Positions 1,698 through 35,813 of a stretch of 64,000 nucleotides of DNA are shown here, piece after piece. Both the position numbers and the translations under genes were made by a program. The stretch is from Escherichia phage SP15. Where the stretch lies: sequence record AP019559, one strand, 5' to 3'. The notes under the pieces are model-generated. The model was not told the DNA's origin. It made no database searches and saw only the letters and a program-made list of their open reading frames with translations. The first letter of the stretch is position 1. Each line of letters opens with the position of its first letter.

Positions 1698-3362
1698 TTA
1701 TGCAAAGAATTTACCGTTCTTAAAGTCGATCAAAGTACGCTGACCGTTTGCATAGGTAATTAAATGCGTTTGTGTCCAGCTTGACGCGCCAACGTTGTAA
1801 CCCATATCCAGACTACCAGCTACGCCAGCGGTATATACCCCGCCGTAAATGCTGGCGGTATGAGTGTGCCCCGTGTTCAGTTTACCCAATTTCTTAAACT
1901 GTTTCGGATTGCCACGGCTGCCGTTTATGCCATTGTGACCGTGTACGCCGCATTCAATGCCTGCAATTTTAAATGATTGGTCAGTCGTTAGGAAAATGGC
2001 GTTAAACTCGCAACCTGCAACCTTACGCAGCGCATAATCTAGCACGTTGAAAGTATCGTCTTTTTCTGCAATAGCTCCATAAATCGCGGCATTAAGGCGG
2101 TGATATAGTTCCGCGTTTGCTGGGTCGTCTTTAATGTTAGCATTACGATCATCAAGCCAACGGGATAACGCCAGATCATGGTTAGATTCAACAATGATTG
2201 TTTGCGAGAAATCGCGCTCCATTGATTCCAGTACGCGCCCCGTATCGATGAGATCATCCAGAACTTTATCACGTCCGGAGGCATACTGTTTTGCTAGGAA
2301 TACACCCGAAGCGCGGTTGTGATGGTTGCGTGATGTAAAGTCGTGAACGTCATGGATAAACTGATATTTTGGTTTAAGAATATCAAGCAAGCTATTTTCG
2401 CCAGCCCATGACGCAGCGGCGCATTCTTCATCTAATTTTTCAGCGTGGATGTCGCCATATTGTAAACCTAAAACGTGCCCCGTTGTTTCATAGCATCCGG
2501 CAGGAGTAGCGCAAACATTCAGATCATAAAACACGCCGCTTTCGTCCATTGTTTCAAGCTGGCGAACAAAAAATTCCCCGTCCTCATCGAACTCAACAAT
2601 CAGCGCACCGAAATTATGCAGCGCCTCGGCCTTTTGTCCTGCTTTCTGCTGAATGTAATTTTTGAGCGTTGCCGTTCCGGTTGAATACATGCGGCGCACA
2701 ATTTCACCTTTTAAAGCTGGCACGCTTTCGGCGGTGATTTTAGCCGCTCCAATTGCCAGACCTTCCAGATTAAGCGCGGTTGCAGTTTCAGCGAATCCAG
2801 AAAGCGGATAATCTGCGGTTGGCAAAACATTAATTTCAGCCATGAAAGCAAAACGGCGGTTATTTAAAAACACGTTTTTATTGCAGATATATTTATCAAA
2901 AGCGGAATCATATTTGATTCCGTCTGCGCCCTCGCCATTTTGAAAACCGTTTTTGTTATAGATATATTTTGAAACGAGCAAATCAGCGCCGATATATTTA
3001 GCAAATTGCTCCAGTGAGGCTAAAAAGTTTTTATGCGGGAAAGTATTATTCTGAATCGATGTAATAATAAAGCGTTTGCCTTGTTTTACTTCCCAGCTTT
3101 CCACCGTGCTAGAAACAATCCCCGCCGCTTCTGGGCGCTCATCGTTTTTAATGGCTTTTGCTACTTTCGCCGCTTTCGGTTTAGCTGGTTTATTTGCTTC
3201 CAACCAGTCGCAGATAGCGGTCGAGTGTTTTGTTGTATCGTAGACCGCTTTTGATATATCGTCGCAGACCTCCAGTTTAGTAGCGCGCAGACGTTTACCA
3301 TAGAAATTAAAGTCAGCGGCCATTTTCAGGATAACGGTTTGTTTTTCTGCGGAAATAATCAT
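1698..3362 (-). CDS. A1: A1-like pre-early protein, calcineurin-type metallophosphoesterase (predicted nuclease)
   Basis: Track ORF extends to 3452; I place the start at the ATG at 3362 (MIISAEK..., GGAG about 10 nt upstream), giving ~554 aa; motifs 'GDIHAEKLD' and 'GHTHTASIYGG' typical of metallophosphoesterases. Confidence 0.7.
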   Translation of the reverse strand: MIISAEKQTVILKMAADFNFYGKRLRATKLEVCDDISKAVYDTTKHSTAICDWLEANKPAKPKAAKVAKAIKNDERPEAAGIVSSTVESWEVKQGKRFIITSIQNNTFPHKNFLASLEQFAKYIGADLLVSKYIYNKNGFQNGEGADGIKYDSAFDKYICNKNVFLNNRRFAFMAEINVLPTADYPLSGFAETATALNLEGLAIGAAKITAESVPALKGEIVRRMYSTGTATLKNYIQQKAGQKAEALHNFGALIVEFDEDGEFFVRQLETMDESGVFYDLNVCATPAGCYETTGHVLGLQYGDIHAEKLDEECAAASWAGENSLLDILKPKYQFIHDVHDFTSRNHHNRASGVFLAKQYASGRDKVLDDLIDTGRVLESMERDFSQTIIVESNHDLALSRWLDDRNANIKDDPANAELYHRLNAAIYGAIAEKDDTFNVLDYALRKVAGCEFNAIFLTTDQSFKIAGIECGVHGHNGINGSRGNPKQFKKLGKLNTGHTHTASIYGGVYTAGVAGSLDMGYNVGASSWTQTHLITYANGQRTLIDFKNGKFFA

Positions 3363-3451
3363 AGTATAAAACTCCATTAAAGGGACTAGGTTAATAACGG
3401 CAATATTGCCAAATATAACGCCGCAAATGAGTGGCGTTATAATTTGCAACA

Positions 3452-3649
3452 TTAATTTAAAGGTATAAGGCTAGAACTAACACCACAAGCAACGGCGGCA
3501 ATAAAACAAATCAGACCTAAACGCTTTGCCAATTTAGACTTACGTTTAAAATAATATGAATCTAAATCATTTTGAAAATAAGCGAATAGTAACGAGGCCG
3601 CCATAATAAATAAGCCTAGAATGAGGGATTCAGTAGGGTAAAAGATCAT
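3452..3649 (-). CDS. small two-helix membrane protein
   Basis: Track ORF 3452..3697 begins at a GTG inside an 18-bp palindrome; ATG at 3649 with GGAG upstream is the more likely start; two hydrophobic helices. Confidence 0.4.
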   Translation of the reverse strand: MIFYPTESLILGLFIMAASLLFAYFQNDLDSYYFKRKSKLAKRLGLICFIAAVACGVSSSLIPLN

Positions 3650-3679
3650 TTTAATAACTCCAGTCAAAGGGAAATTATA

Positions 3680-3697
3680 GTGGGGAATATTCCCCAC
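3680..3697. repeat. perfect 18-bp palindrome GTGGGGAATATTCCCCAC between the A2-like and A1-like genes
   Basis: Read directly; sequence is its own reverse complement. Confidence 0.8.
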
Positions 3698-3706
3698 TAA
3701 TTAAAT

Positions 3707-4123
3707 TTATTCGCCTGCGGCTTGTTTCACTTCATCGGCAACGCCTAACAGTTGCGCCACGGCGTCCAGCGTTTCCAGTTTTGCGCTTTCCAGTGATGCC
3801 AGATCGTCGGCGTCTTTGATAATGCCGGAATCGATGGCGTGTTTTGCAATTACGCGCACATAATGCGCTTTGCGGATTGAGCTACCGCCGCCAACTTTGC
3901 GCGGCTTATCGCTTTTCTGATACGCTTTCGCGCTGGTCAATTTTGAGCGAACGGACACGGGAGAAGCCGCGCCCACTGCTTTCGCGATCTCTTTCAGGCC
4001 GTCGCTATTTGCGAAATCTAAACCGTTTTCATTAATTAACTGCTGGTACATGGTAACAGCTTTTTGGGTGTTTTCTTCATTCCATGCAAATTTTGCGGAT
4101 TTTTCGGTTTTAACGTTAGCCAT
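3707..4123 (-). CDS. A2: A2-like pre-early DNA-binding protein (tentative)
   Basis: 138-aa basic/acidic protein immediately upstream (in transcription) of the A1-like gene; assignment rests on gene order and size. Confidence 0.5.
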   Translation of the reverse strand: MANVKTEKSAKFAWNEENTQKAVTMYQQLINENGLDFANSDGLKEIAKAVGAASPVSVRSKLTSAKAYQKSDKPRKVGGGSSIRKAHYVRVIAKHAIDSGIIKDADDLASLESAKLETLDAVAQLLGVADEVKQAAGE

Positions 4124-4473: not shown

Positions 4474-4671
4474 AGTATAAACTCCAAGTTATTTAGGGGA
4501 TTGTTCCGCATTACCTGCTAGAAAGTAGCAGGTAATAAGCAACAATCCGCTCGCCAATATAATCAATTTAAAGAACTCCACGCAGGCCGCTATATCCCAG
4601 TTAGGGGGCGGGGCACATTATGGTAAGTGCCGACCGTCAAATTTTATCAAATTATCGCTCTTATCGAACTG

Positions 4672-4960
4672 GGTACATCTTAAAGCCTATCGGCTAGGGT
4701 GTCAAACTATTTTTTGCAGTTTTTTATGGTTTTCCTTCAGGTCGATCATAATATTACGCCAGATCATTTCCAGACCTTGCTGGCGGCCTTTCTTGTACTG
4801 CGTGAATCGGTATTTTACCGATCTTTGCGCTACTGTCAACAAATTTTTTGTTTTGCTATCTAGTGCCTTGCTAGGCTTGCCAGTGATCAATAAAGTTTGT
4901 TTCATATCGTCGATTCCTTATAATGTATAAGTTTACCGCCGATAGGCTTTAAGATGTACC
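4672..4960. repeat. 22-bp perfect inverted repeat (4672-4693 / 4939-4960) flanking a 67-aa ORF
   Basis: GGTACATCTTAAAGCCTATCGG and its exact reverse complement, 245 bp apart. Confidence 0.8.
4702..4905 (-). CDS. hypothetical small basic protein
   Basis: 67-aa ORF lying exactly between the 22-bp inverted repeats. Confidence 0.4.
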   Translation of the reverse strand: MKQTLLITGKPSKALDSKTKNLLTVAQRSVKYRFTQYKKGRQQGLEMIWRNIMIDLKENHKKLQKIV

Positions 4961-29617: not shown

Positions 29618-29633
29618 AATGTTTCCTTAAAGT

Positions 29634-29709
29634 TGGAGCGGCTAGAGGGAATCGAACCCTACTCAGCGAGGCTTGGAAGGCCTGCGACACAACCCGTGTG
29701 CTTAACCGC
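29634..29709 (-). tRNA. tRNA-Gly (TCC)
   Basis: Hand fold: loop CTTCCAA; short D-arm. Confidence 0.65.
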
Positions 29710-29717
29710 TTATTATT

Positions 29718-29793
29718 TGGCTGGAGAAGGAGGAATCGAACCTACCATTAACGGAGTCAAAGGCCGTTGTGCTAACCGTTACACTACTCTCCA
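29718..29793 (-). tRNA. tRNA-Gln (TTG)
   Basis: Hand fold: loop CTTTGAC, U1-A72. Confidence 0.65.
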
Positions 29794-30843: not shown

Positions 30844-30934
30844 TGGCGGAAGAGGAGAGATTTGAACTCTCAAGCCGTTTTACCAGTCAGCCACTTTCCA
30901 AGCGGTTTTCGTCGCCAATTCGATTTGCTCTTCC
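30844..30934 (-). tRNA. class II tRNA, anticodon unresolved (possibly Ser GGA)
   Basis: Acceptor GGAAGAG/CTCTTCC and T-arm resemble tRNA-Ser; D/anticodon region does not fold canonically by hand. Confidence 0.4.
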
Positions 30935-31046
30935 AAAAATAAGATGATGCCTCTATCACACCAGGCAGTTACGCCCCGCTGGGATTCGAACCCATTAAAA
31001 CAGCTCAACCGAGATAGTAGGTTTAATTTACTCTGACCATCAAATT

Positions 31047-31123
31047 TGGTGCGTGACAAGGGATTCGAACCCTCAAAACCCGACTTCTAAGGACGGTATG
31101 TATGCCAATTCCATCAATCACGC
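31047..31123 (-). tRNA. tRNA with anticodon TAG (Leu by anticodon) but class I architecture
   Basis: Hand fold: loop CTTAGAA, 5-nt variable loop, discriminator A. Confidence 0.55.
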
Positions 31124-31128
31124 GTATT

Positions 31129-31207
31129 TGGTGGAGGATAACGAATTCGAATCGTTCTGATGTCCTCGGTGCAAGCGAGGTGTCCACTCCCAGCAGACCC
31201 ATCCCCC
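31129..31207 (-). tRNA. tRNA-Ala (TGC)
   Basis: Hand fold: G3-U70 wobble in acceptor, loop CTTGCAC. Confidence 0.7.
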
Positions 31208-31492
31208 AAAATCTTTAGTTTACTAAGGCTATTAGCTCGGCGTAACTACAGCACCTTCGCTTCGAGCGGAAGGAACTACGTCATCTCGCAAACCCGATAC
31301 ACTATTCAGTTGCCGCTGAATCTAGTGGACTAATCTAGAACCTCTCCCGAGTCATAGGGATCGTGCTTTTTGGCAGCCAGTCCTAGGTCGAGCTAATACC
31401 TTAGTGAACTATGATGAGGATTTCTCCTCATCAATTTATATAAACATTATATCAAGAAATTAAGCATTAAGCAACTGAATTTCTTATTTAAT

Positions 31493-31566
31493 TGGTACTC
31501 AGTAGTGGAATCGAACCACTGCAACCACCGTGTAAAGATGGAGTTCTACCATTAAACTAACCGAGC
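31493..31566 (-). tRNA. tRNA-Val (TAC)
   Basis: Hand fold: loop TTTACAC. Confidence 0.7.
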
Positions 31567-31719
31567 AAAAGACGTTCTATAATATAGGCTTCAGTTATAA
31601 GCTCATAAAACCCTGCGAATATCATTGCAATAGTAAAATTATCTATGATTACTATTGGCTCTTTAATTTTTTGAATGATTAAATAAAACCAGATAGTCAT
31701 ATCTGACTTCCTCGTAATT

Positions 31720-31798
31720 TGGTAGATCGCCTGGGACTCGAACCCAGAACCTTCCGATTAAAAGTCGGATGCTACTAAACCTATTGAGCTAGCGACCT
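31720..31798 (-). tRNA. tRNA-Lys (TTT)
   Basis: Hand fold: perfect anticodon stem, loop CTTTTAA. Confidence 0.7.
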
Positions 31799-31987
31799 AT
31801 TAGTAGCCATTATATACTTCTTTAATAGAATGGACTTTTAAGTAAGGATGATTAATCCCAAACTCCGCCATTACTTCTTTTTCATCTTTTCCATAATGTG
31901 CAAGTAAGGATCTTGAGGTATTATTACCTAAACGTTTGTCATTTACTACTAATCGAAATACTTTCATTTCGAAATCCTCTATTAAAA

Positions 31988-32064
31988 TGGAAGCGGGTGC
32001 AGGAATCGAACCTACCTCTTTCTAGCTTATGAGACTAGCGATCTCTACCAGAGATCTAACCCGC
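31988..32064 (-). tRNA. tRNA, anticodon CAT (Met/fMet/Ile2 not resolved)
   Basis: Hand fold: loop CTCATAA; acceptor pairing ambiguous at the 1-72 position. Confidence 0.6.
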
Positions 32065-32071
32065 AATTGTT

Positions 32072-32147
32072 TGGTCAGTGCGGCAGGACTCGAACCTGCG
32101 ACCCGAAGCATCCAAGGCTCCCACGCTACCAACTGCGCTACGCACTG
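32072..32147 (-). tRNA. tRNA-Pro (TGG)
   Basis: Hand fold: perfect acceptor CAGTGCG/CGCACTG, loop CTTGGAT. Confidence 0.8.
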
Positions 32148-32156
32148 TTAATTCTT

Positions 32157-32354
32157 TTATTGTGGGGGGATATTAATAATTCGTCCATCTACACAATAAA
32201 CGGTACTAGGGATTGTACTGTATATGTAGAAATTCTTTATATTACTCTCTCCGCCACAGAAATTTTTAGCAAATTCATACTCTTTATTAATGGTTGAGTC
32301 AAGTTTAAAACAACCAGTAAGTAGGAATACAGATAGCAATAAAACTTTCTTCAT
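32157..32354 (-). CDS. small lipoprotein
   Basis: 65 aa, signal peptide with lipobox 'LLTGC'; early-type promoter upstream. Confidence 0.5.
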   Translation of the reverse strand: MKKVLLLSVFLLTGCFKLDSTINKEYEFAKNFCGGESNIKNFYIYSTIPSTVYCVDGRIINIPPQ

Positions 32355-32564
32355 TTTGCTTTCCTTCTCTTCACTTTATAAAATATATTATACAGAGAAT
32401 TAAGTAAAATAGCAAATGAATTTTTAATAAATTTACTTATTGTGTAGGCCACCTGGAGGCTATGAACCCCACGGCTGACAAAGAAGTTTGCGAGACTTCT
32501 CTTAAAAGCCAGAATAGACCCGCCGATCTATCGGAACCTACATAATAAGTAAACTTTATAGTGT

Positions 32565-32640
32565 CATTCTAGACAGGACTCGAACCTGTTATCACTTGTG
32601 CGGACTTACGAGAACCATTCTTTCACTCGAATCGAACGAG
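32565..32640 (-). other. degenerate tRNA-like element with two T-arm-like hairpins
   Basis: ACAGG-TTCGAGT-CCTGT and CTCG-TTCGATT-CGAG hairpins; no canonical anticodon arm. Confidence 0.35.
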
Positions 32641-32807
32641 CTTCTGCCCTAGCCAAGCTGGTTTCCCCATCAACCACGCTAGAATGTTTGATTGTTTTCA
32701 GTGCAAGAGTCCGAGTCTTGGACACGACCGCTTCGCAAGTACATAGGCAGCTTATCATGAGTCAGCACTTCCGAATTGCTAGCCCCGTGTTCTGCACTGA
32801 AATTTTA

Positions 32808-33155
32808 TTAGTTTAACCGTAAAGTATTATCTACTTCACCATTAATTGTTCGGCATTCCTCTGGGATTGCTGGTGTAGCCTTGTATTCCCACCACTCAGC
32901 ACCATCATATTCCCCACGTTCTAGCCAAGTTCCATCGGCAAACCATACATTACCATAAAGTAATTGTCCACCGTATCCAGAATCATATTCAAAGTCTAGG
33001 TTATTAAGAAACCCCTCAATGTCTTCTTCTGTATAACCTAAAGGTAATACCCAGACTTTTTTGTCCCCATAATACCCAAATTCTATTTTAATACACTTAA
33101 CTTTAGAATTGGTATTTTTTAAGGCGAGTAACAGCTCTTCTTTAGCATTACGCAT
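32808..33155 (-). CDS. hypothetical protein
   Basis: 115 aa, Trp/Tyr/Gly-rich. Confidence 0.5.
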   Translation of the reverse strand: MRNAKEELLLALKNTNSKVKCIKIEFGYYGDKKVWVLPLGYTEEDIEGFLNNLDFEYDSGYGGQLLYGNVWFADGTWLERGEYDGAEWWEYKATPAIPEECRTINGEVDNTLRLN

Positions 33156-33180
33156 AGTATATTCTCATACTGAATTAAGT

Positions 33181-33257
33181 TGGCGCGACCGATGGGATTT
33201 GAACCCACATTCTCTCCCGTGACAGGGGAGTACCATTACCAAGCCAGCCCCGGTCGC
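33181..33257 (-). tRNA. tRNA-Asp (GTC)
   Basis: Hand fold: perfect acceptor GCGACCG/CGGTCGC, loop CTGTCAC. Confidence 0.8.
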
Positions 33258-33266
33258 ATAATTCAT

Positions 33267-33452
33267 TTACTCAGCTTTGAGTTTTTCAATAGCTGCATTA
33301 AGTTCTTTAAGAAACTCTTTTCGTACATTAAGACGATTGAGACTTACTAGTATATCGTGTTTAAGTTCTTCGATGTATTTCTTTTCAACTTCAATATTGT
33401 TGATAGTGCTATCACGATGAACTTCTAGCTGCGCAATTACATTCTTGGACAT
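33267..33452 (-). CDS. small coiled-coil protein
   Basis: 61 aa. Confidence 0.5.
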   Translation of the reverse strand: MSKNVIAQLEVHRDSTINNIEVEKKYIEELKHDILVSLNRLNVRKEFLKELNAAIEKLKAE

Positions 33453-33554
33453 GCTTGTTTCCTCAGTTATTAATGAAAATGGTATCTGTGGCTGAATTCG
33501 ATGTCAGCAATGATAGCTGGTTGGCTACCGGTTTACTTAACTCTACACAGAATT

Positions 33555-33637
33555 TGGCGGGCCGTGTAGGATTCGAACCTACGTTGTCTTTCGACATGGA
33601 TTAACAGTCCACCGCCAAACCGCTTGGCTAACGACCC
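33555..33637 (-). tRNA. class II (long variable arm) tRNA with anticodon GTT (Asn by anticodon), discriminator G
   Basis: Hand fold is clean: D-stem GCCA/TGGC, anticodon stem GTGGA/TCCAT, loop CTGTTAA, variable hairpin GTC-GAAA-GAC, T-arm GTAGG-TTCGAAT-CCTAC. Confidence 0.6.
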
Positions 33638-33789
33638 TAAATTTATATTGCTGACTAGGATTTTCACCTAGACGGAGTTAGCACCGTAGCGTGTAGCGGC
33701 ATACCTCTCCAAACCGTGCCTCATCTTTCAATTACGGAGACAGTGTTCCTACGCGTGCCTGAATTGATTCAACAATTCTTCCAGCAAAT

Positions 33790-33865
33790 TGGACGACCGC
33801 ATGAGATTTGAACTCACATAAAAAGGATTTGCAATCCTTCGCCTAAGCCCTTCAGCCAACGGTCG
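33790..33865 (-). tRNA. tRNA-Cys (GCA)
   Basis: Hand fold: perfect anticodon stem AAGGA/TCCTT, loop TTGCAAA. Confidence 0.75.
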
Positions 33866-33934
33866 GTTTATCTTGTTCTGTCATGTTGCTTCTCCAGTTC
33901 AATTTATGTAATTATTATACAGAACTTTTGGAAA

Positions 33935-34207
33935 CTAAGCAACTACATTTTTTAAGAATTTGATGCCTTTCTTTTTCTTCTTATATTTCCACGTTAATGG
34001 ATTCTGTCGATTATGAACGCTTGAGATCTTTGTCTCGTCAAAGTTCTTCAATATCATGTAATCACAGGATAATTGTTCTAGTAGAATGTGATCACCGTCA
34101 AAAGCGTATACATAAGGCTGTTGACTAACACGATAATGATAGACTTTGTTAATTCTACGTTTCAGCGACTTATCAGCGCAGTAAATAAAGAAGTTTTCAG
34201 GATGCAT
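33935..34207 (-). CDS. hypothetical basic protein
   Basis: Track ORF 33935..34222 (TTG start) trimmed to the ATG at 34207 with AAGGAG RBS. Confidence 0.5.
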   Translation of the reverse strand: MHPENFFIYCADKSLKRRINKVYHYRVSQQPYVYAFDGDHILLEQLSCDYMILKNFDETKISSVHNRQNPLTWKYKKKKKGIKFLKNVVA

Positions 34208-34224
34208 CAGCAGCTCCTTCAATT

Positions 34225-34299
34225 TGGTGCACCCTGTTCGTATCGAACGAACCTCTCAAGCTCTTCAGGCAAGCGCTAATCCATCTCAGCTAAAGGTGC
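34225..34299 (-). tRNA. tRNA-Phe (GAA)
   Basis: Hand fold: U8-A9, D-stem GCTG/TAGC, loop CTGAAGA; two U-U mismatches in anticodon stem. Confidence 0.55.
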
Positions 34300-34305
34300 A
34301 AATTT

Positions 34306-34382
34306 TGGCAAACCTACTAGGACTCGAACCTAGACCGTACGGTTTTGGAGACCGACATGCTGTCCAGTAACACTCTAGGAAT
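34306..34382 (-). tRNA. tRNA-Trp (CCA)
   Basis: Hand fold: loop CTCCAAA, perfect T-stem; acceptor has two U-U mismatches. Confidence 0.55.
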
Positions 34383-34390
34383 GCAGAAAT

Positions 34391-34467
34391 TGGCGTCCTG
34401 TGCGGGGATCGAACCCGCAAATCCTACCTTGAAAGGGTAGTGACTTTACCAGTTTGTCTAACAGGAC
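34391..34467 (-). tRNA. tRNA-Glu (TTC)
   Basis: Hand fold: all four stems perfect, loop CTTTCAA. Confidence 0.85.
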
Positions 34468-34474
34468 TTAAATT

Positions 34475-34565
34475 TGGTGTTGGATGATGGAGTCGAACCA
34501 CCCGAGACCCTTCCGAGTCGGCAGATTTACAGTCTGCTTCGCTACCTCTACGATACTAATCCAAC
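34475..34565 (-). tRNA. tRNA-Tyr (GTA), class II
   Basis: Hand fold: perfect acceptor GTTGGAT/ATCCAAC, anticodon arm GCAGA-CTGTAAA-TCTGC, long variable arm. Confidence 0.75.
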
Positions 34566-34630
34566 ATATTTAGAAGTATTCAAAAATTCTCATTTAAACA
34601 CTTTTAAATATGTTTTCAAATTAGGTAACT

Positions 34631-34687
34631 ATTATACCAAGTTTTAAGGCACTGAGCAAGTCAAATTTTAAAGAACTTGCTCAGTGC
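34631..34687 (-). promoter_or_regulatory. early promoter for the tRNA cluster overlapping a 13-bp perfect inverted repeat
   Basis: Minus strand TTGCTC, 17 nt, TATAAT (34631-34659); inverted repeat GCACTGAGCAAGT 34649-34661 / 34675-34687. Confidence 0.55.
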
Positions 34688-34695
34688 TATATTAG

Positions 34696-34971
34696 TTAGT
34701 CGAACTTAGGAGTGACAGTTAAGGAGAACGGAAGTTCGAAAACTTCTTCACCCTCATTACTAACGGTAACTACACGACCTTTAAGTTCAGACATTAAAAT
34801 ATCAATATCAGCTTTTGCATCTGGAGCCATACCAGCTTCAACACATTTAGCTTTAACTTCCGGCAGAAGTTCGACATCGTAGAAATAAAGCCATTCAATC
34901 TCACCTTCCCAGCCTTCCCAGGATTTACAGATTGCACTTTCAATACCAGTTGCTACAACACGATTTTGCAT
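34696..34971 (-). CDS. hypothetical acidic protein
   Basis: 91 aa. Confidence 0.5.
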   Translation of the reverse strand: MQNRVVATGIESAICKSWEGWEGEIEWLYFYDVELLPEVKAKCVEAGMAPDAKADIDILMSELKGRVVTVSNEGEEVFELPFSLTVTPKFD

Positions 34972-35061
34972 TCGTTAACTCCTTCATCAATTTATACAAC
35001 TATTATATCAGAAATTTAAAGCAAAAGGCAAGTACATTTTTAAAAATTCTGTTTGGAGGAG

Positions 35062-35268
35062 CTAAACTCCAGATTCTTCAGCTAAGTCTAGGCTAATAAG
35101 AGTTATAGCCATAATTGCTGCACCGTGTTCTTTTTCTCCGGTGTTTTTAGCAGAGTCTATAATAGTCTTAATCTGTTCGTAATAGCCTTTTACTTCTTGT
35201 TCAATACCTGCCTCGGCTATCATGCCTTTAGTCATGATTCGTTGCATAGTAATTTCACGGTTAGCCAT
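35062..35268 (-). CDS. hypothetical protein
   Basis: 68 aa. Confidence 0.5.
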   Translation of the reverse strand: MANREITMQRIMTKGMIAEAGIEQEVKGYYEQIKTIIDSAKNTGEKEHGAAIMAITLISLDLAEESGV

Positions 35269-35428
35269 GATGTTTCTCCAGCTTCATTTTTAATAGTTTA
35301 CAAATGAAATCAACGTCTTCATCTGTACCTAGATCTCTATCTTCAAGAGTTGCCTTGAAGTTTTTAGTCAATTCCATGAGGATAACTTCTCTAGAACGAC
35401 GTGTTGGCGGAGGTGGATGTCTATACAT
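35261..35428 (-). CDS. hypothetical small protein (55 aa, below ORF-track cutoff)
   Basis: ATG with AAGGAAATAAG RBS; 8-nt overlap with the downstream gene. Confidence 0.35.
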   Translation of the reverse strand: MYRHPPPPTRRSREVILMELTKNFKATLEDRDLGTDEDVDFICKLLKMKLEKHHG

Positions 35429-35443
35429 CTTATTTCCTTAGTT

Positions 35444-35520
35444 TGGTAGGGGTGGTGGGATTCGAACCCACAAAACCTGAATTTTAAGTCCAGTACCTAT
35501 GCCAATTCGATTACACCCCC
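35444..35520 (-). tRNA. tRNA with anticodon TAA (Leu by anticodon) but class I architecture
   Basis: Hand fold: good acceptor and T-stem, loop CTTAAAA, 5-nt variable loop, discriminator A. Confidence 0.55.
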
Positions 35521-35527
35521 GTGTAGT

Positions 35528-35716
35528 TTAGTCAATTACTTTTGAGGCTTCAAGGTAGTCGATATAGTGTATGTTTTCTACCGTAATCATATAATCTGTC
35601 ACTTTATCCATAGCTTGGGCTTCAGAGGTAGCTCTGGCTAACCTATATCCTTTTTTATATTCATCCGGGTATTCTCTATCTTGGATAAACACAACATAAA
35701 CTATATATAGATCCAT
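35528..35716 (-). CDS. hypothetical protein
   Basis: 62 aa. Confidence 0.5.
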   Translation of the reverse strand: MDLYIVYVVFIQDREYPDEYKKGYRLARATSEAQAMDKVTDYMITVENIHYIDYLEASKVID

Positions 35717-35735: not shown

Positions 35736-35813
35736 TGGTGGCTCCCCGAGGATTCGAACCTACGTACCTTCCGGTTATGAGCCGGGTGCTCATACCATAT
35801 GAGCTTGAGAACC
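35736..35813 (-). tRNA. tRNA, anticodon CAT (third copy)
   Basis: Hand fold: perfect D-stem GCTC/GAGC, loop CTCATAA; weak T-stem. Confidence 0.5.

What the first reader, a model, noticed from the sequence alone, without database searches (positions are those of the whole stretch)
31047..35520. Two class I tRNAs with Leu anticodons (TAG and TAA)
The tRNAs at 31047-31123 and 35444-35520 have 5-nt variable loops but anticodon loops CTTAGAA and CTTAAAA. Bacterial Leu tRNAs are normally class II, so these are either unusual Leu isoacceptors or tRNAs whose identity differs from the anticodon reading.
Basis: partly seen in the sequence, partly recalled or inferred. Interest (0 to 1): 0.5.

Follow-up and report, generated by a model that had tools for sequence, protein, structure and literature searches.

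The report
Short-armed leucine tRNAs of phage T5
The two genes are real, already catalogued leucine tRNAs of T5-family phages that lack the long extra arm bacterial leucine tRNAs normally have but keep every feature the E. coli leucine-charging enzyme needs, and this design is common in phages.

Summary
ARAGORN and Rfam place two 77-nt tRNAs at 31047-31123(-) and 35444-35520(-). They have anticodons UAG and UAA, 5-nt variable loops (GUUUU) and an encoded CCA.

They are not new. Both are 100% identical to tRNAL1 and tRNAL2 of the hand-curated T5-family record AJ604531, which notes that the UUA tRNA becomes an effective amber suppressor. Both are near-invariant in hundreds of T5-like genomes.

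Leucine identity is well supported. Both carry:
- A73
- A15 and U48
- G18G19 and A20a
- the tRNA-Leu D-arm (3-bp stem, 13•22 mismatch, 9-nt loop) shared with all five E. coli tRNA-Leu families and almost absent from non-Leu tRNAs (3/1539)

E. coli LeuRS is reported not to need the long arm. UUA and CUA together make 45% of the Leu codons in this window's ORFs, versus about 17% in E. coli.

The wider context is more interesting. About one fifth of sampled viral tRNA-Leu loci are short-armed, versus 3 of 120 bacterial loci. The same phages keep the long arms of Ser and Tyr tRNAs.

Verdict: these are known genes of a known kind. The design is under-described in phages. Charging with leucine was not tested here.

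The parts
31047..31123 (-). tRNA-Leu(UAG), 77 nt including the encoded CCA. It reads CUA (and CUG). It is class I, with a 5-nt variable loop. It equals tRNAL1 of AJ604531.
   Evidence: ARAGORN; Rfam 47.5 bits with a full-length cloverleaf; domain parse; 100% identical to curated tRNAL1; 129 phage records at >=99% identity.
31087..31089 (-). Anticodon UAG (the + strand reads cta), inside the loop C32 U33 U34 A35 G36 A37 A38. Position 37 is A, where the host leuW has G (the m1G37 site). The anticodon stem has a U30-U40 mismatch.
   Evidence: A37 is frequent in viral class I Leu(NAG) tRNAs (42/64) and rare in bacterial class II ones (2/85).
31075..31079 (-). 5-nt variable loop G44 U45 U46 U47 U48. 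U48 is the expected partner of A15 (Levitt pair).
   Evidence: U48 is invariant in all 116 class I Leu tRNAs although the search pattern did not specify it.
31098..31114 (-). Leu-type D arm: A10 U11 G12 / C23 A24 U25 stem (3 bp), a G13-A22 mismatch, and the 9-nt loop A14 A15 U16 U17 G18 G19 C20 A20a U21.
   Evidence: All five E. coli K-12 tRNA-Leu families have the same architecture. It occurs in 3/1539 non-Leu viral tRNAs and 0/80 bacterial non-Leu tRNAs.
35444..35520 (-). tRNA-Leu(UAA), 77 nt including the encoded CCA. It reads UUA (and UUG). It is class I, with a 5-nt variable loop. It equals tRNAL2 of AJ604531.
   Evidence: ARAGORN; Rfam 57.4 bits; domain parse; 100% identical to curated tRNAL2, whose note says a CUA-anticodon version is an effective amber suppressor; 291 phage records at >=99% identity.
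35484..35486 (-). Anticodon UAA (the + strand reads tta), inside the loop C32 U33 U34 A35 A36 A37 A38. The A36-A37-A38 run is the same as in host leuZ.
35472..35476 (-). 5-nt variable loop GUUUU, identical to that of the UAG tRNA and ending in U48.
35495..35511 (-). Leu-type D arm: A10 U11 C12 / G23 G24 U25 stem (3 bp), a G13-A22 mismatch, and the loop AAUUGGCAU, identical (9/9) to the loop of the UAG tRNA.

Best explanation
These are the two functional leucine tRNAs of a T5-family phage (tRNA-Leu1, reading CUA, and tRNA-Leu2, reading UUA). They are transcribed within the phage tRNA cluster. I infer that host enzymes process them and that the host leucyl-tRNA synthetase charges them. They lack the long variable arm. 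They keep the elements reported to specify leucine identity in E. coli: A73, the A15-U48 pair, G18G19 and A20a in a 9-nt D loop on a 3-bp D stem, and a normal T loop for the elbow contacts. E. coli LeuRS reads neither the anticodon nor, according to the published mutagenesis, the long arm, so the arm can be lost without losing identity. Their job is to supply decoding capacity for UUA and CUA, which the AT-rich phage uses heavily and the host rarely. Shown here: the genes, their fold, the identity elements, the codon demand and the absence of a phage LeuRS. Taken from a database note: suppressor activity of an anticodon-changed Leu2. Inferred: charging with leucine by host LeuRS, and the reason the arm was lost.
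For: - Two independent tools give the same cloverleaf and anticodons.
- Both genes are 100% identical to the curated tRNAL1/tRNAL2 of AJ604531. Its note says replacing the Leu2 anticodon with CUA gives an effective amber suppressor, so the tRNA is expressed, charged and used by E. coli ribosomes.
- The D-arm architecture, A73 and U48 are shared with all five E. coli tRNA-Leu families and with none of the other 22 tRNAs in the window. This D-arm occurs in 3/1539 non-Leu viral tRNAs and 0/80 bacterial non-Leu tRNAs.
- Among 121 viral tRNAs of this layout, all have A73 and Leu anticodons. U48 and U8 are invariant although the pattern did not specify them.
- A published review lists E. coli Leu identity as A73, A15-U48, G18G19, A20a and the D/T tertiary contacts, with the long arm and anticodon not required (PMC9976931).
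- In 118 viral loci with short Leu tRNAs, Ser stays long in 83/84 and Tyr in 38/41 (Fisher p = 2e-39 for Leu versus Ser). This fits loss only where the synthetase tolerates it.
- UUA is 25% and CUA 20% of Leu codons in 51 window ORFs. Textbook E. coli values are 13% and 4%.
- No LeuRS is encoded in the window. Only 61 of 50,697 phage records show any LeuRS-like match, at most 4 of them from Escherichia or Salmonella phages.
- Both genes are near-invariant across hundreds of T5-like genomes.
Against: - No aminoacylation data were produced here. The suppressor note shows function but not which amino acid is inserted.
- PMC6614811 reports that E. coli LeuRS could not charge the Streptomyces type I tRNA-Leu(CAA) and describes EcLeuRS as charging only type II. 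That tRNA has C48 rather than U48, so it lacks an E. coli identity element that the T5 tRNAs keep. The result therefore need not carry over to T5.
- The same paper cites crystal contacts of the EcLeuRS C-terminal domain with variable-arm nucleotides 47f-47i. Charging of the armless phage tRNAs may therefore be less efficient.
- Outside the D arm, sequence similarity does not separate Leu from non-Leu tRNAs. Descent from a long-armed tRNA-Leu is not shown.
- The UAG tRNA has a U30-U40 mismatch and A37 instead of G37.
- From my own knowledge, T5 mutants with deletions in the tRNA region are viable in the laboratory, so the benefit is conditional.
Confidence: 0.85

Rival explanations
1. Leucine tRNAs whose armless shape and altered anticodon loop exist mainly as a counter-defence. 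On this reading they replace host tRNA-Leu that a host or prophage tRNA nuclease or tRNA-modifying toxin destroys, and they escape it because the recognised feature (long arm, G37) is gone. Decoding is still leucine, but the selected function is immunity evasion rather than codon supply.
For: - T5 tRNAs are documented counter-defences for other isotypes: Lys against PARIS (PMC11464382), Tyr against retron Eco7 (PMC11555353) and Thr against OLD (bioRxiv 10.64898/2026.07.10.737580), listed.
- Short-armed Leu is enriched in viral versus bacterial DNA: 24/120 versus 3/120 loci, p = 2e-5.
- A37 replaces the near-universal G37 in 42/64 viral class I Leu(NAG) tRNAs, versus 2/85 bacterial ones.
Against: - None of the three defence papers I searched (PMC11555353, PMC12409363 and bioRxiv 10.64898/2026.07.10.737580) mentions tRNA-Leu or the variable arm as a target; PMC11464382 has no such mention either.
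- The codon-usage match explains the choice of UAG and UAA anticodons without invoking defence.
- T4, on the same host, keeps a long-armed tRNA-Leu of 87 nt.
Confidence: 0.08
2. The tRNAs have an identity that differs from the anticodon. A synthetase other than LeuRS charges them, so UUA or CUA codons are partly recoded or mistranslated during infection.
For: - Class I shape with Leu anticodons is atypical for bacteria.
- One published test found EcLeuRS inactive on a type I tRNA-Leu from another organism.
- A few pipelines label the UAG gene 'tRNA-OTHER' (H36).
Against: - All reported E. coli Leu determinants are present, and the D arm is essentially restricted to Leu-anticodon tRNAs.
- No G3-U70 pair (Ala) is present: both tRNAs have G3-C70.
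- No long arm for SerRS or TyrRS is present.
- The anticodons UAG and UAA are the same as those of host leuW and leuZ, so they add no new risk of misrecognition.
- Recoding 45% of Leu codons would be catastrophic for phage proteins whose homologues use leucine normally.
Confidence: 0.04
3. They are decaying or non-functional tRNA-like relics, or processing or punctuation elements of the tRNA-cluster transcripts, rather than working adaptors.
For: - The T5 tRNA region contains several annotated tRNA-like stable RNAs of unknown function (RNA1, RNA2, RNA3 in AJ604531).
- The UAG tRNA has one mismatched anticodon-stem pair.
- Single-sequence folding is not better than shuffles.
Against: - Both genes are near-invariant across 129 and 291 records.
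- The cloverleaf is complete, with encoded CCA and canonical U8, U33, G18G19 and a T54-U55-C56 T loop.
- The wider family shows compensatory changes at all 20 pairs.
- The database note records suppressor activity.
Confidence: 0.03

Closest known systems
tRNA-Leu1 (CUA) and tRNA-Leu2 (UUA) of phages T5, BF23 and 'phage 5' (GenBank AJ604531, curated tRNA gene region)
   Same: Both sequences are identical over all 77 nt. They have the same position in the tRNA cluster: Leu1 lies 5 nt downstream of tRNA-Ala, and Leu2 lies between small ORFs upstream of the Ile2/Ser3 pair.
   Different: Nothing in the genes themselves. The window's phage is closest to vB_EcoS_FFH1 (99.3% over 30900-35700) and differs from AJ604531 in the surrounding ORFs and in some neighbouring tRNAs.
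E. coli K-12 tRNA-Leu isoacceptors leuW (UAG) and leuZ (UAA), plus leuV, leuX and leuU
   Same: Same anticodons as leuW and leuZ. Also shared: A73, U8, the 3-bp D stem with an R13-A22 mismatch, the 9-nt D loop AAUYGGYAN (6-7 of 9 positions identical), and a U at the last variable position.
   Different: The variable region is 5 nt instead of 13-15 nt with a hairpin. The T loop is UUCGAAU instead of UUCAAGU. The UAG tRNA has A37 where leuW has G37. Stem sequences are unrelated.
Streptomyces coelicolor type I tRNA-Leu(CAA) (PMC6614811)
   Same: It is a bacterial-world tRNA-Leu with a 5-nt variable loop that coexists with type II tRNA-Leu and a single LeuRS. Five nucleotides were found to be the minimum loop length for good charging.
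   Different: The Streptomyces tRNA has C48 (loop ACAGC), and its synthetase does not use A73. E. coli LeuRS did not charge it. The T5 tRNAs have U48 and A73, the E. coli-type determinants. I did not compare the full sequences.
Animal mitochondrial tRNA-Leu(UUR) and tRNA-Leu(CUN)
   Same: They are class I leucine tRNAs recognised through A73 and A14 without a long arm (PMC9976931).
   Different: They are charged by a dedicated mitochondrial LeuRS, have a floppy, mismatch-rich structure and have a different evolutionary origin. The T5 tRNAs have a canonical elbow and presumably use the host cytosolic enzyme.
Engineered E. coli tRNA-Leu variants lacking the variable arm and/or anticodon arm (minimalist substrates, summarised in PMC9976931)
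   Same: They are armless yet still leucylated, provided A73 and the D/T tertiary contacts are intact. The T5 tRNAs look like the natural counterpart of that experiment.
   Different: Those are laboratory constructs assayed in vitro. The T5 genes are natural, conserved and used in infection.
Phage T4 tRNA-Leu
   Same: It is a phage-encoded tRNA-Leu within a tRNA cluster, on the same host species.
   Different: The T4 gene is 87 nt, so it is class II with the long arm.

Membership tests
tRNA (Rfam RF00005) | Full-length match to the tRNA covariance model above the gathering score | tested here: met
   47.5 and 57.4 bits against a gathering score of 29, model positions 1-71 of 71. ARAGORN agrees.
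Bacterial (E. coli-type) tRNA-Leu | Leucine anticodon (NAG or YAA) | tested here: met
   UAG and UAA in 7-nt loops with U33.
Bacterial (E. coli-type) tRNA-Leu | Discriminator A73 (the major LeuRS determinant) | tested here: met
   Both have A73. So do 121/121 viral tRNAs of this layout and 117/117 bacterial tRNA-Leu sampled.
Bacterial (E. coli-type) tRNA-Leu | A15 and U48, able to form the reverse Levitt pair | tested here: met
   A15 and U48 are present in both. U48 is invariant in 116/116 although not part of the search pattern. The three-dimensional pairing itself cannot be tested here.
Bacterial (E. coli-type) tRNA-Leu | D arm with a 3-bp stem, a 13-22 mismatch and a 9-nt loop placing G18G19 and A20a | tested here: met
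   The architecture is identical to leuZ, leuW, leuV, leuX and leuU. It occurs in 3/1539 non-Leu viral and 0/80 non-Leu bacterial tRNAs.
Bacterial (E. coli-type) tRNA-Leu | Long variable arm (class II shape) | tested here: not met
   The loop is 5 nt (GUUUU), against 13-15 nt in E. coli. In the bacterial sample 113/117 are long-armed. The arm is a structural hallmark but is reported not to be an identity determinant for E. coli LeuRS.
Bacterial (E. coli-type) tRNA-Leu | Aminoacylation with leucine by LeuRS | not testable with these tools
   The evidence is only indirect: the curated note on amber suppression, the listing of tRNA-Leu among biochemically mapped T5 tRNAs in PMC4810235, and the absence of a phage LeuRS.
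Type I (class I) tRNA-Leu, as in animal mitochondria and S. coelicolor tRNA-Leu(CAA) | Leu anticodon combined with a 4-5-nt variable loop | tested here: met
Type I (class I) tRNA-Leu, as in animal mitochondria and S. coelicolor tRNA-Leu(CAA) | Common descent with the Streptomyces or mitochondrial type I genes | not tested
   Only one difference is known: Streptomyces has C48 and the loop ACAGC, against U48 and GUUUU here. I made no sequence comparison.
T5-family tRNAL1/tRNAL2 genes | Sequence identity and synteny with the curated genes | tested here: met
   77/77 identity for both, with the same neighbours.

The most novel reading that the evidence does not exclude
Short-armed (type I) tRNA-Leu may be a widespread and largely unrecognised phage design, not a T5 curiosity. 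Roughly one in five sampled viral tRNA-Leu loci are of this type, with all six Leu anticodon types, always with A73 and U48. It is coupled to frequent loss of the m1G37 site, and the same genomes retain the Ser and Tyr arms. If so, ordinary bacterial LeuRS enzymes, including that of E. coli, routinely charge type I tRNA-Leu in infected cells. That would be contrary to the statement that EcLeuRS charges only type II and that Streptomyces LeuRS is the only prokaryotic enzyme charging both types. The scattered type I tRNA-Leu genes in bacteria (Streptomyces, mycobacterial tRNA arrays, Gordonia, Herbiconiux) may then be of phage origin.
Probability: 0.4. Interest if true: 0.5.

Novelty: already known. 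Interest (0 to 1): 0.3.

Why it matters
For this window, the result removes a possible false alarm. The two odd-looking tRNAs do not signal recoding. They are the phage's ordinary supply of adaptors for UUA and CUA, two codons it uses about 1.6 and 4.4 times as often per 1000 codons as the textbook E. coli values.

More broadly, they are a natural counterpart of the laboratory finding that E. coli LeuRS ignores the long variable arm. Phages discard the arm of tRNA-Leu, yet the same genomes almost never discard the arms of tRNA-Ser or tRNA-Tyr, whose synthetases use them.

That matters in three ways:
- For annotation: some pipelines call these genes 'tRNA-OTHER' or miss them.
- For statements in the synthetase literature that bacterial LeuRS outside Streptomyces handles only type II substrates.
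- For anyone designing compact leucine or suppressor tRNAs for E. coli.

Tried and rejected
1. Single-sequence thermodynamic folding did not give cloverleaves, and the z-scores were about -1.3. I rejected it as uninformative for tRNAs and used covariance models and comparative pair counts instead.

2. A structure-aware identity comparison outside the D loop did not place the phage Leu tRNAs nearer to E. coli tRNA-Leu than to unrelated tRNAs. I therefore make no claim of descent from a host tRNA-Leu by arm deletion.

3. The bare D-loop 10-mer AATYGGYANA turned out not to be Leu-specific. About 2% of non-Leu tRNAs carry it in a different register, with a 4-bp GCUC/GAGC stem and an 8-nt loop. The claim holds only when the register is enforced.

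4. I used all ten literature searches. None found a paper in the held library that links phages with type I tRNA-Leu, or that describes the T5 suppressor experiments. The Glukhov 2018 paper on T5 tRNA-deletion mutants is not held. The 1980s T5 tRNA sequencing papers are not searchable, so I cannot say whether the short arm was remarked on then.

5. I looked for tRNA-Leu or the variable arm as a target in papers on tRNA-cleaving defence systems and found no mention.

6. I considered a phage-encoded LeuRS and rejected it.

The pattern is restricted to AATTGG-type D loops and TTCRANT T loops, and viral contigs can include host flanks. It is an estimate, not a census.

Full report
**1. What is there**

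ARAGORN finds 23 tRNA genes on the minus strand between 28.5 and 39.5 kb. They include tRNA-Leu(tag) at 31047-31123 and tRNA-Leu(taa) at 35444-35520. Rfam's tRNA model matches both over its full length, at 47.5 and 57.4 bits against a gathering score of 29. It places the anticodon loops at CUUAGAA and CUUAAAA and a 5-nt variable loop, GUUUU, in each. No other register or anticodon was offered by either tool. Both genes are 77 nt and encode CCA.

**2. What genome this is, and whether the genes are known**

The region is 99.3% identical to Escherichia phage vB_EcoS_FFH1 and 88-98% identical to hundreds of T5-like phages (Tequintavirus). AJ604531 is a hand-curated record of the tRNA region of a T5 relative. 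It annotates the same two genes as tRNAL1 (codon CUA) and tRNAL2 (codon UUA). For tRNAL2 it adds that replacing the anticodon with CUA 'converts this tRNA into effective amber suppressor'. The window's sequences are identical to those two genes at all 77 positions.

Across the phage collection, 129 records hold the UAG gene and 291 hold the UAA gene at 99% identity or more. Nearly all of them label it tRNA-Leu. A few say 'tRNA-OTHER', annotate nothing, or lay a homing-endonuclease CDS over it. A review table also lists tRNA-Leu among the T5 tRNAs mapped in the 1970s-80s (PMC4810235). So the genes and their leucine assignment are established.

**3. Are they really leucine tRNAs?**

I fetched the five E. 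coli K-12 tRNA-Leu families and parsed all sequences domain by domain. The phage tRNAs share the following with every host tRNA-Leu:
- a D arm that is unusual among tRNAs: three stem pairs, a purine13-A22 mismatch, and a 9-nt loop A14 A15 U16 Y17 G18 G19 Y20 A20a N21
- A73
- a U at the last variable position (U48)

The two phage tRNAs have identical D loops (AAUUGGCAU) and identical variable loops. None of the other 22 tRNAs in the window has this D arm.

The bare loop sequence also occurs in about 2% of non-Leu tRNAs, in a different register. With the register enforced, the architecture is found in 3 of 1539 non-Leu viral tRNAs and 0 of 80 non-Leu bacterial tRNAs, against most tRNA-Leu of either class.

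These are the features that a recent review gives as the E. coli leucine identity set: A73, the A15-U48 pair, G18G19, A20a and the D/T tertiary contacts. The review states explicitly that neither the anticodon nor the long variable arm is required, and that variants lacking the arm stay active (PMC9976931).

No other identity signal is apparent. Both tRNAs have G3-C70, so there is no G3-U70 pair for Ala, and there is no long arm for SerRS or TyrRS. The anticodons are the same as those of host leuW and leuZ.

The phage does not bring its own enzyme. E. coli LeuS finds nothing in the window. Only 61 of 50,697 phage records show any LeuRS-like match, and at most four of those are from Escherichia or Salmonella phages.

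**4. The apparent contradiction in the literature**

PMC6614811 describes a type I tRNA-Leu(CAA) in Streptomyces coelicolor. It reports that E. coli LeuRS could not charge it, and calls the Streptomyces enzyme the only prokaryotic LeuRS that charges both types. It never mentions phages. That tRNA has the variable loop ACAGC with C48, and its synthetase does not rely on A73. It therefore lacks an E. coli determinant that the T5 tRNAs retain, and the negative result need not apply to them.

The same paper cites crystal contacts of the E. coli LeuRS C-terminal domain with C56, A20a and arm nucleotides 47f-47i. The first two are present in the T5 tRNAs and the arm contacts are not, so a lower charging efficiency cannot be excluded. 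I could not test aminoacylation. This remains the main inferred step.

**5. What they are for**

The window is 39% G+C. In 51 non-overlapping ORFs of at least 120 codons, UUA is 25% and CUA 20% of leucine codons. Per 1000 codons the values are 21.5 and 17.1, against textbook E. coli values of 13.7 and 3.9. The two phage anticodons therefore match the two leucine codons for which phage demand most exceeds host usage. This is the classical codon-supply role of phage tRNAs.

A counter-defence role is documented for other T5 tRNAs (Lys, Tyr, Thr). It has no support for Leu in the papers I could search. I keep it as a minor rival.

**6. The wider picture**

I scanned viral contigs with a degenerate pattern fixing the Leu D loop, a NAR anticodon, class I spacing and the T loop. 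The scan hit its 120-locus limit. Of 137 matches, 121 form complete cloverleaves. All 121 have A73, which the pattern did not specify. They carry the anticodons UAG (56), CAA (29), UAA (25), AAG (7), GAG (3) and CAG (1), on very diverse acceptor stems.

114 distinct sequences plus the two window genes align without a gap, and U8, U48 and A73 are invariant. On the class I cloverleaf, 98.7% of cells pair and all 20 pairs show changes on both sides. The comparison values are 59% for shuffles and 35-45% for slid partners. I had pre-filtered the acceptor stem at 6 of 7 pairs or better. The other three helices were not filtered.

A class-agnostic version of the pattern gave the following:
- Viral sample: 120 stretches, of which 24 were loci already found by the class I scan and 96 were new loci holding long-armed genes.
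- Bacterial genomes: 113 of 117 verified tRNA-Leu genes were long-armed. The four short ones lay in three loci.
- The difference, 24/120 versus 3/120 loci, has Fisher p = 2e-5.

In the 118 viral loci that hold short Leu tRNAs, ARAGORN finds 172 short and 46 long Leu genes. Ser is long in 83 of 84 cases and Tyr in 38 of 41. Phages thus shed the arm specifically where the cognate synthetase is reported not to need it.

Related short Leu genes are present in cultured Felixounavirus, Vibrio, Pseudomonas and Cronobacter phages. T4 keeps an 87-nt long-armed gene. A short-loop tRNA-Leu(TAG) in a mycobacterial tRNA array has been noted in passing (PMC6582537).

**7. A second systematic difference**

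Position 37 also differs. In CUN-reading tRNA-Leu, bacterial long-armed genes have G37 (the m1G37 site) in 83 of 85 cases. Viral short-armed genes have A37 in 42 of 64, as T5 Leu(UAG) does (p = 2e-18). I did not pursue what modification, if any, replaces m1G37.

**8. Verdict**

The finding is real and correctly read. It concerns genes that have been catalogued as tRNA-Leu for this phage family for decades, and the kind (type I tRNA-Leu) is known from mitochondria and Streptomyces. For the finding as given, the novelty class is 'already known' and the interest is modest.

The part that may deserve a short follow-up is the generalisation: short-armed tRNA-Leu appears to be a common phage design. 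It implies that ordinary bacterial LeuRS enzymes charge type I substrates, a point the synthetase literature I could search does not acknowledge.

Noticed in passing
window 33555-33637 (-): tRNA-Asn(GUU) is 83 nt, with a 13-nt variable region GUCGAAAGACAAC (a GUC/GAC hairpin with a GAAA loop). This is a class-II-like arm in an isotype that is normally class I, the mirror image of the Leu case. About 10% of Asn tRNAs in the viral loci are also 80 nt or longer.
   Followed up: partly
window 35736-35813 (-): Rfam finds a tRNA here (40.3 bits) that ARAGORN missed. Its anticodon loop is CUCAUAA (CAU). AJ604531 calls the equivalent gene tRNA-Ile2 (lysidine type), while the FFH1 record calls it tRNA-Met.
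   Followed up: partly
window about 29630-29715 (-), next to tRNA-Gln(UUG) at 29718-29793: AJ604531 has a tRNA-Gly(GGA) immediately downstream of tRNA-Gln1. Neither ARAGORN nor Rfam reports any tRNA-Gly in this window, so this phage appears to lack it or to carry something else there.
   Followed up: no
window 31047-31123 (-), tRNA positions 30, 40 and 37: The Leu(UAG) tRNA has a U30-U40 mismatch in the anticodon stem and A37 instead of the G37 (m1G37 site) of host leuW. A37 occurs in 42/64 viral class I Leu(NAG) tRNAs, versus 2/85 bacterial class II ones.
   Followed up: partly
L012, L014, L040, L070, L084, L103, L110 (viral contigs): Seven short-armed viral tRNA-Leu genes have the anticodon AAG (A34, loop CUAAGAA). 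That anticodon did not appear among the 117 bacterial tRNA-Leu genes sampled. It may imply inosine at position 34 or unmodified A34 decoding.
   Followed up: no
L249 (Gordonia sp.), L285 (Herbiconiux sp.), L300 (Planctomycetota MAG, 3550-3912): These are the only short-armed tRNA-Leu genes in the bacterial sample. There are two single UAA genes in actinobacteria. In the Planctomycetota MAG there is a tandem of three short Leu genes (CAG, UAA, GAG) followed by a 100-nt tRNA-Tyr. I did not check whether they lie in prophages or tRNA arrays.
   Followed up: no
phage records H33, H39, H42 and H36, H53: Some public T5-like and related records annotate an HNH homing-endonuclease CDS across the tRNA-Leu(UAG) gene, and others label it 'tRNA-OTHER'. 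These are annotation inconsistencies, probably caused by the atypical class I shape.
   Followed up: no
L001 (AJ604531) 787-1148, 1828-1999, 3272-3374, 3743-3867, 4670-4742: The curated T5-family tRNA region lists several stable RNAs and 'tRNA-like RNAs with unknown functions' (RNAI, RNAIII, RNAIV, RNA1, RNA2, RNA2H, RNA3) interspersed with the tRNAs. I did not examine their counterparts in this window.
   Followed up: no
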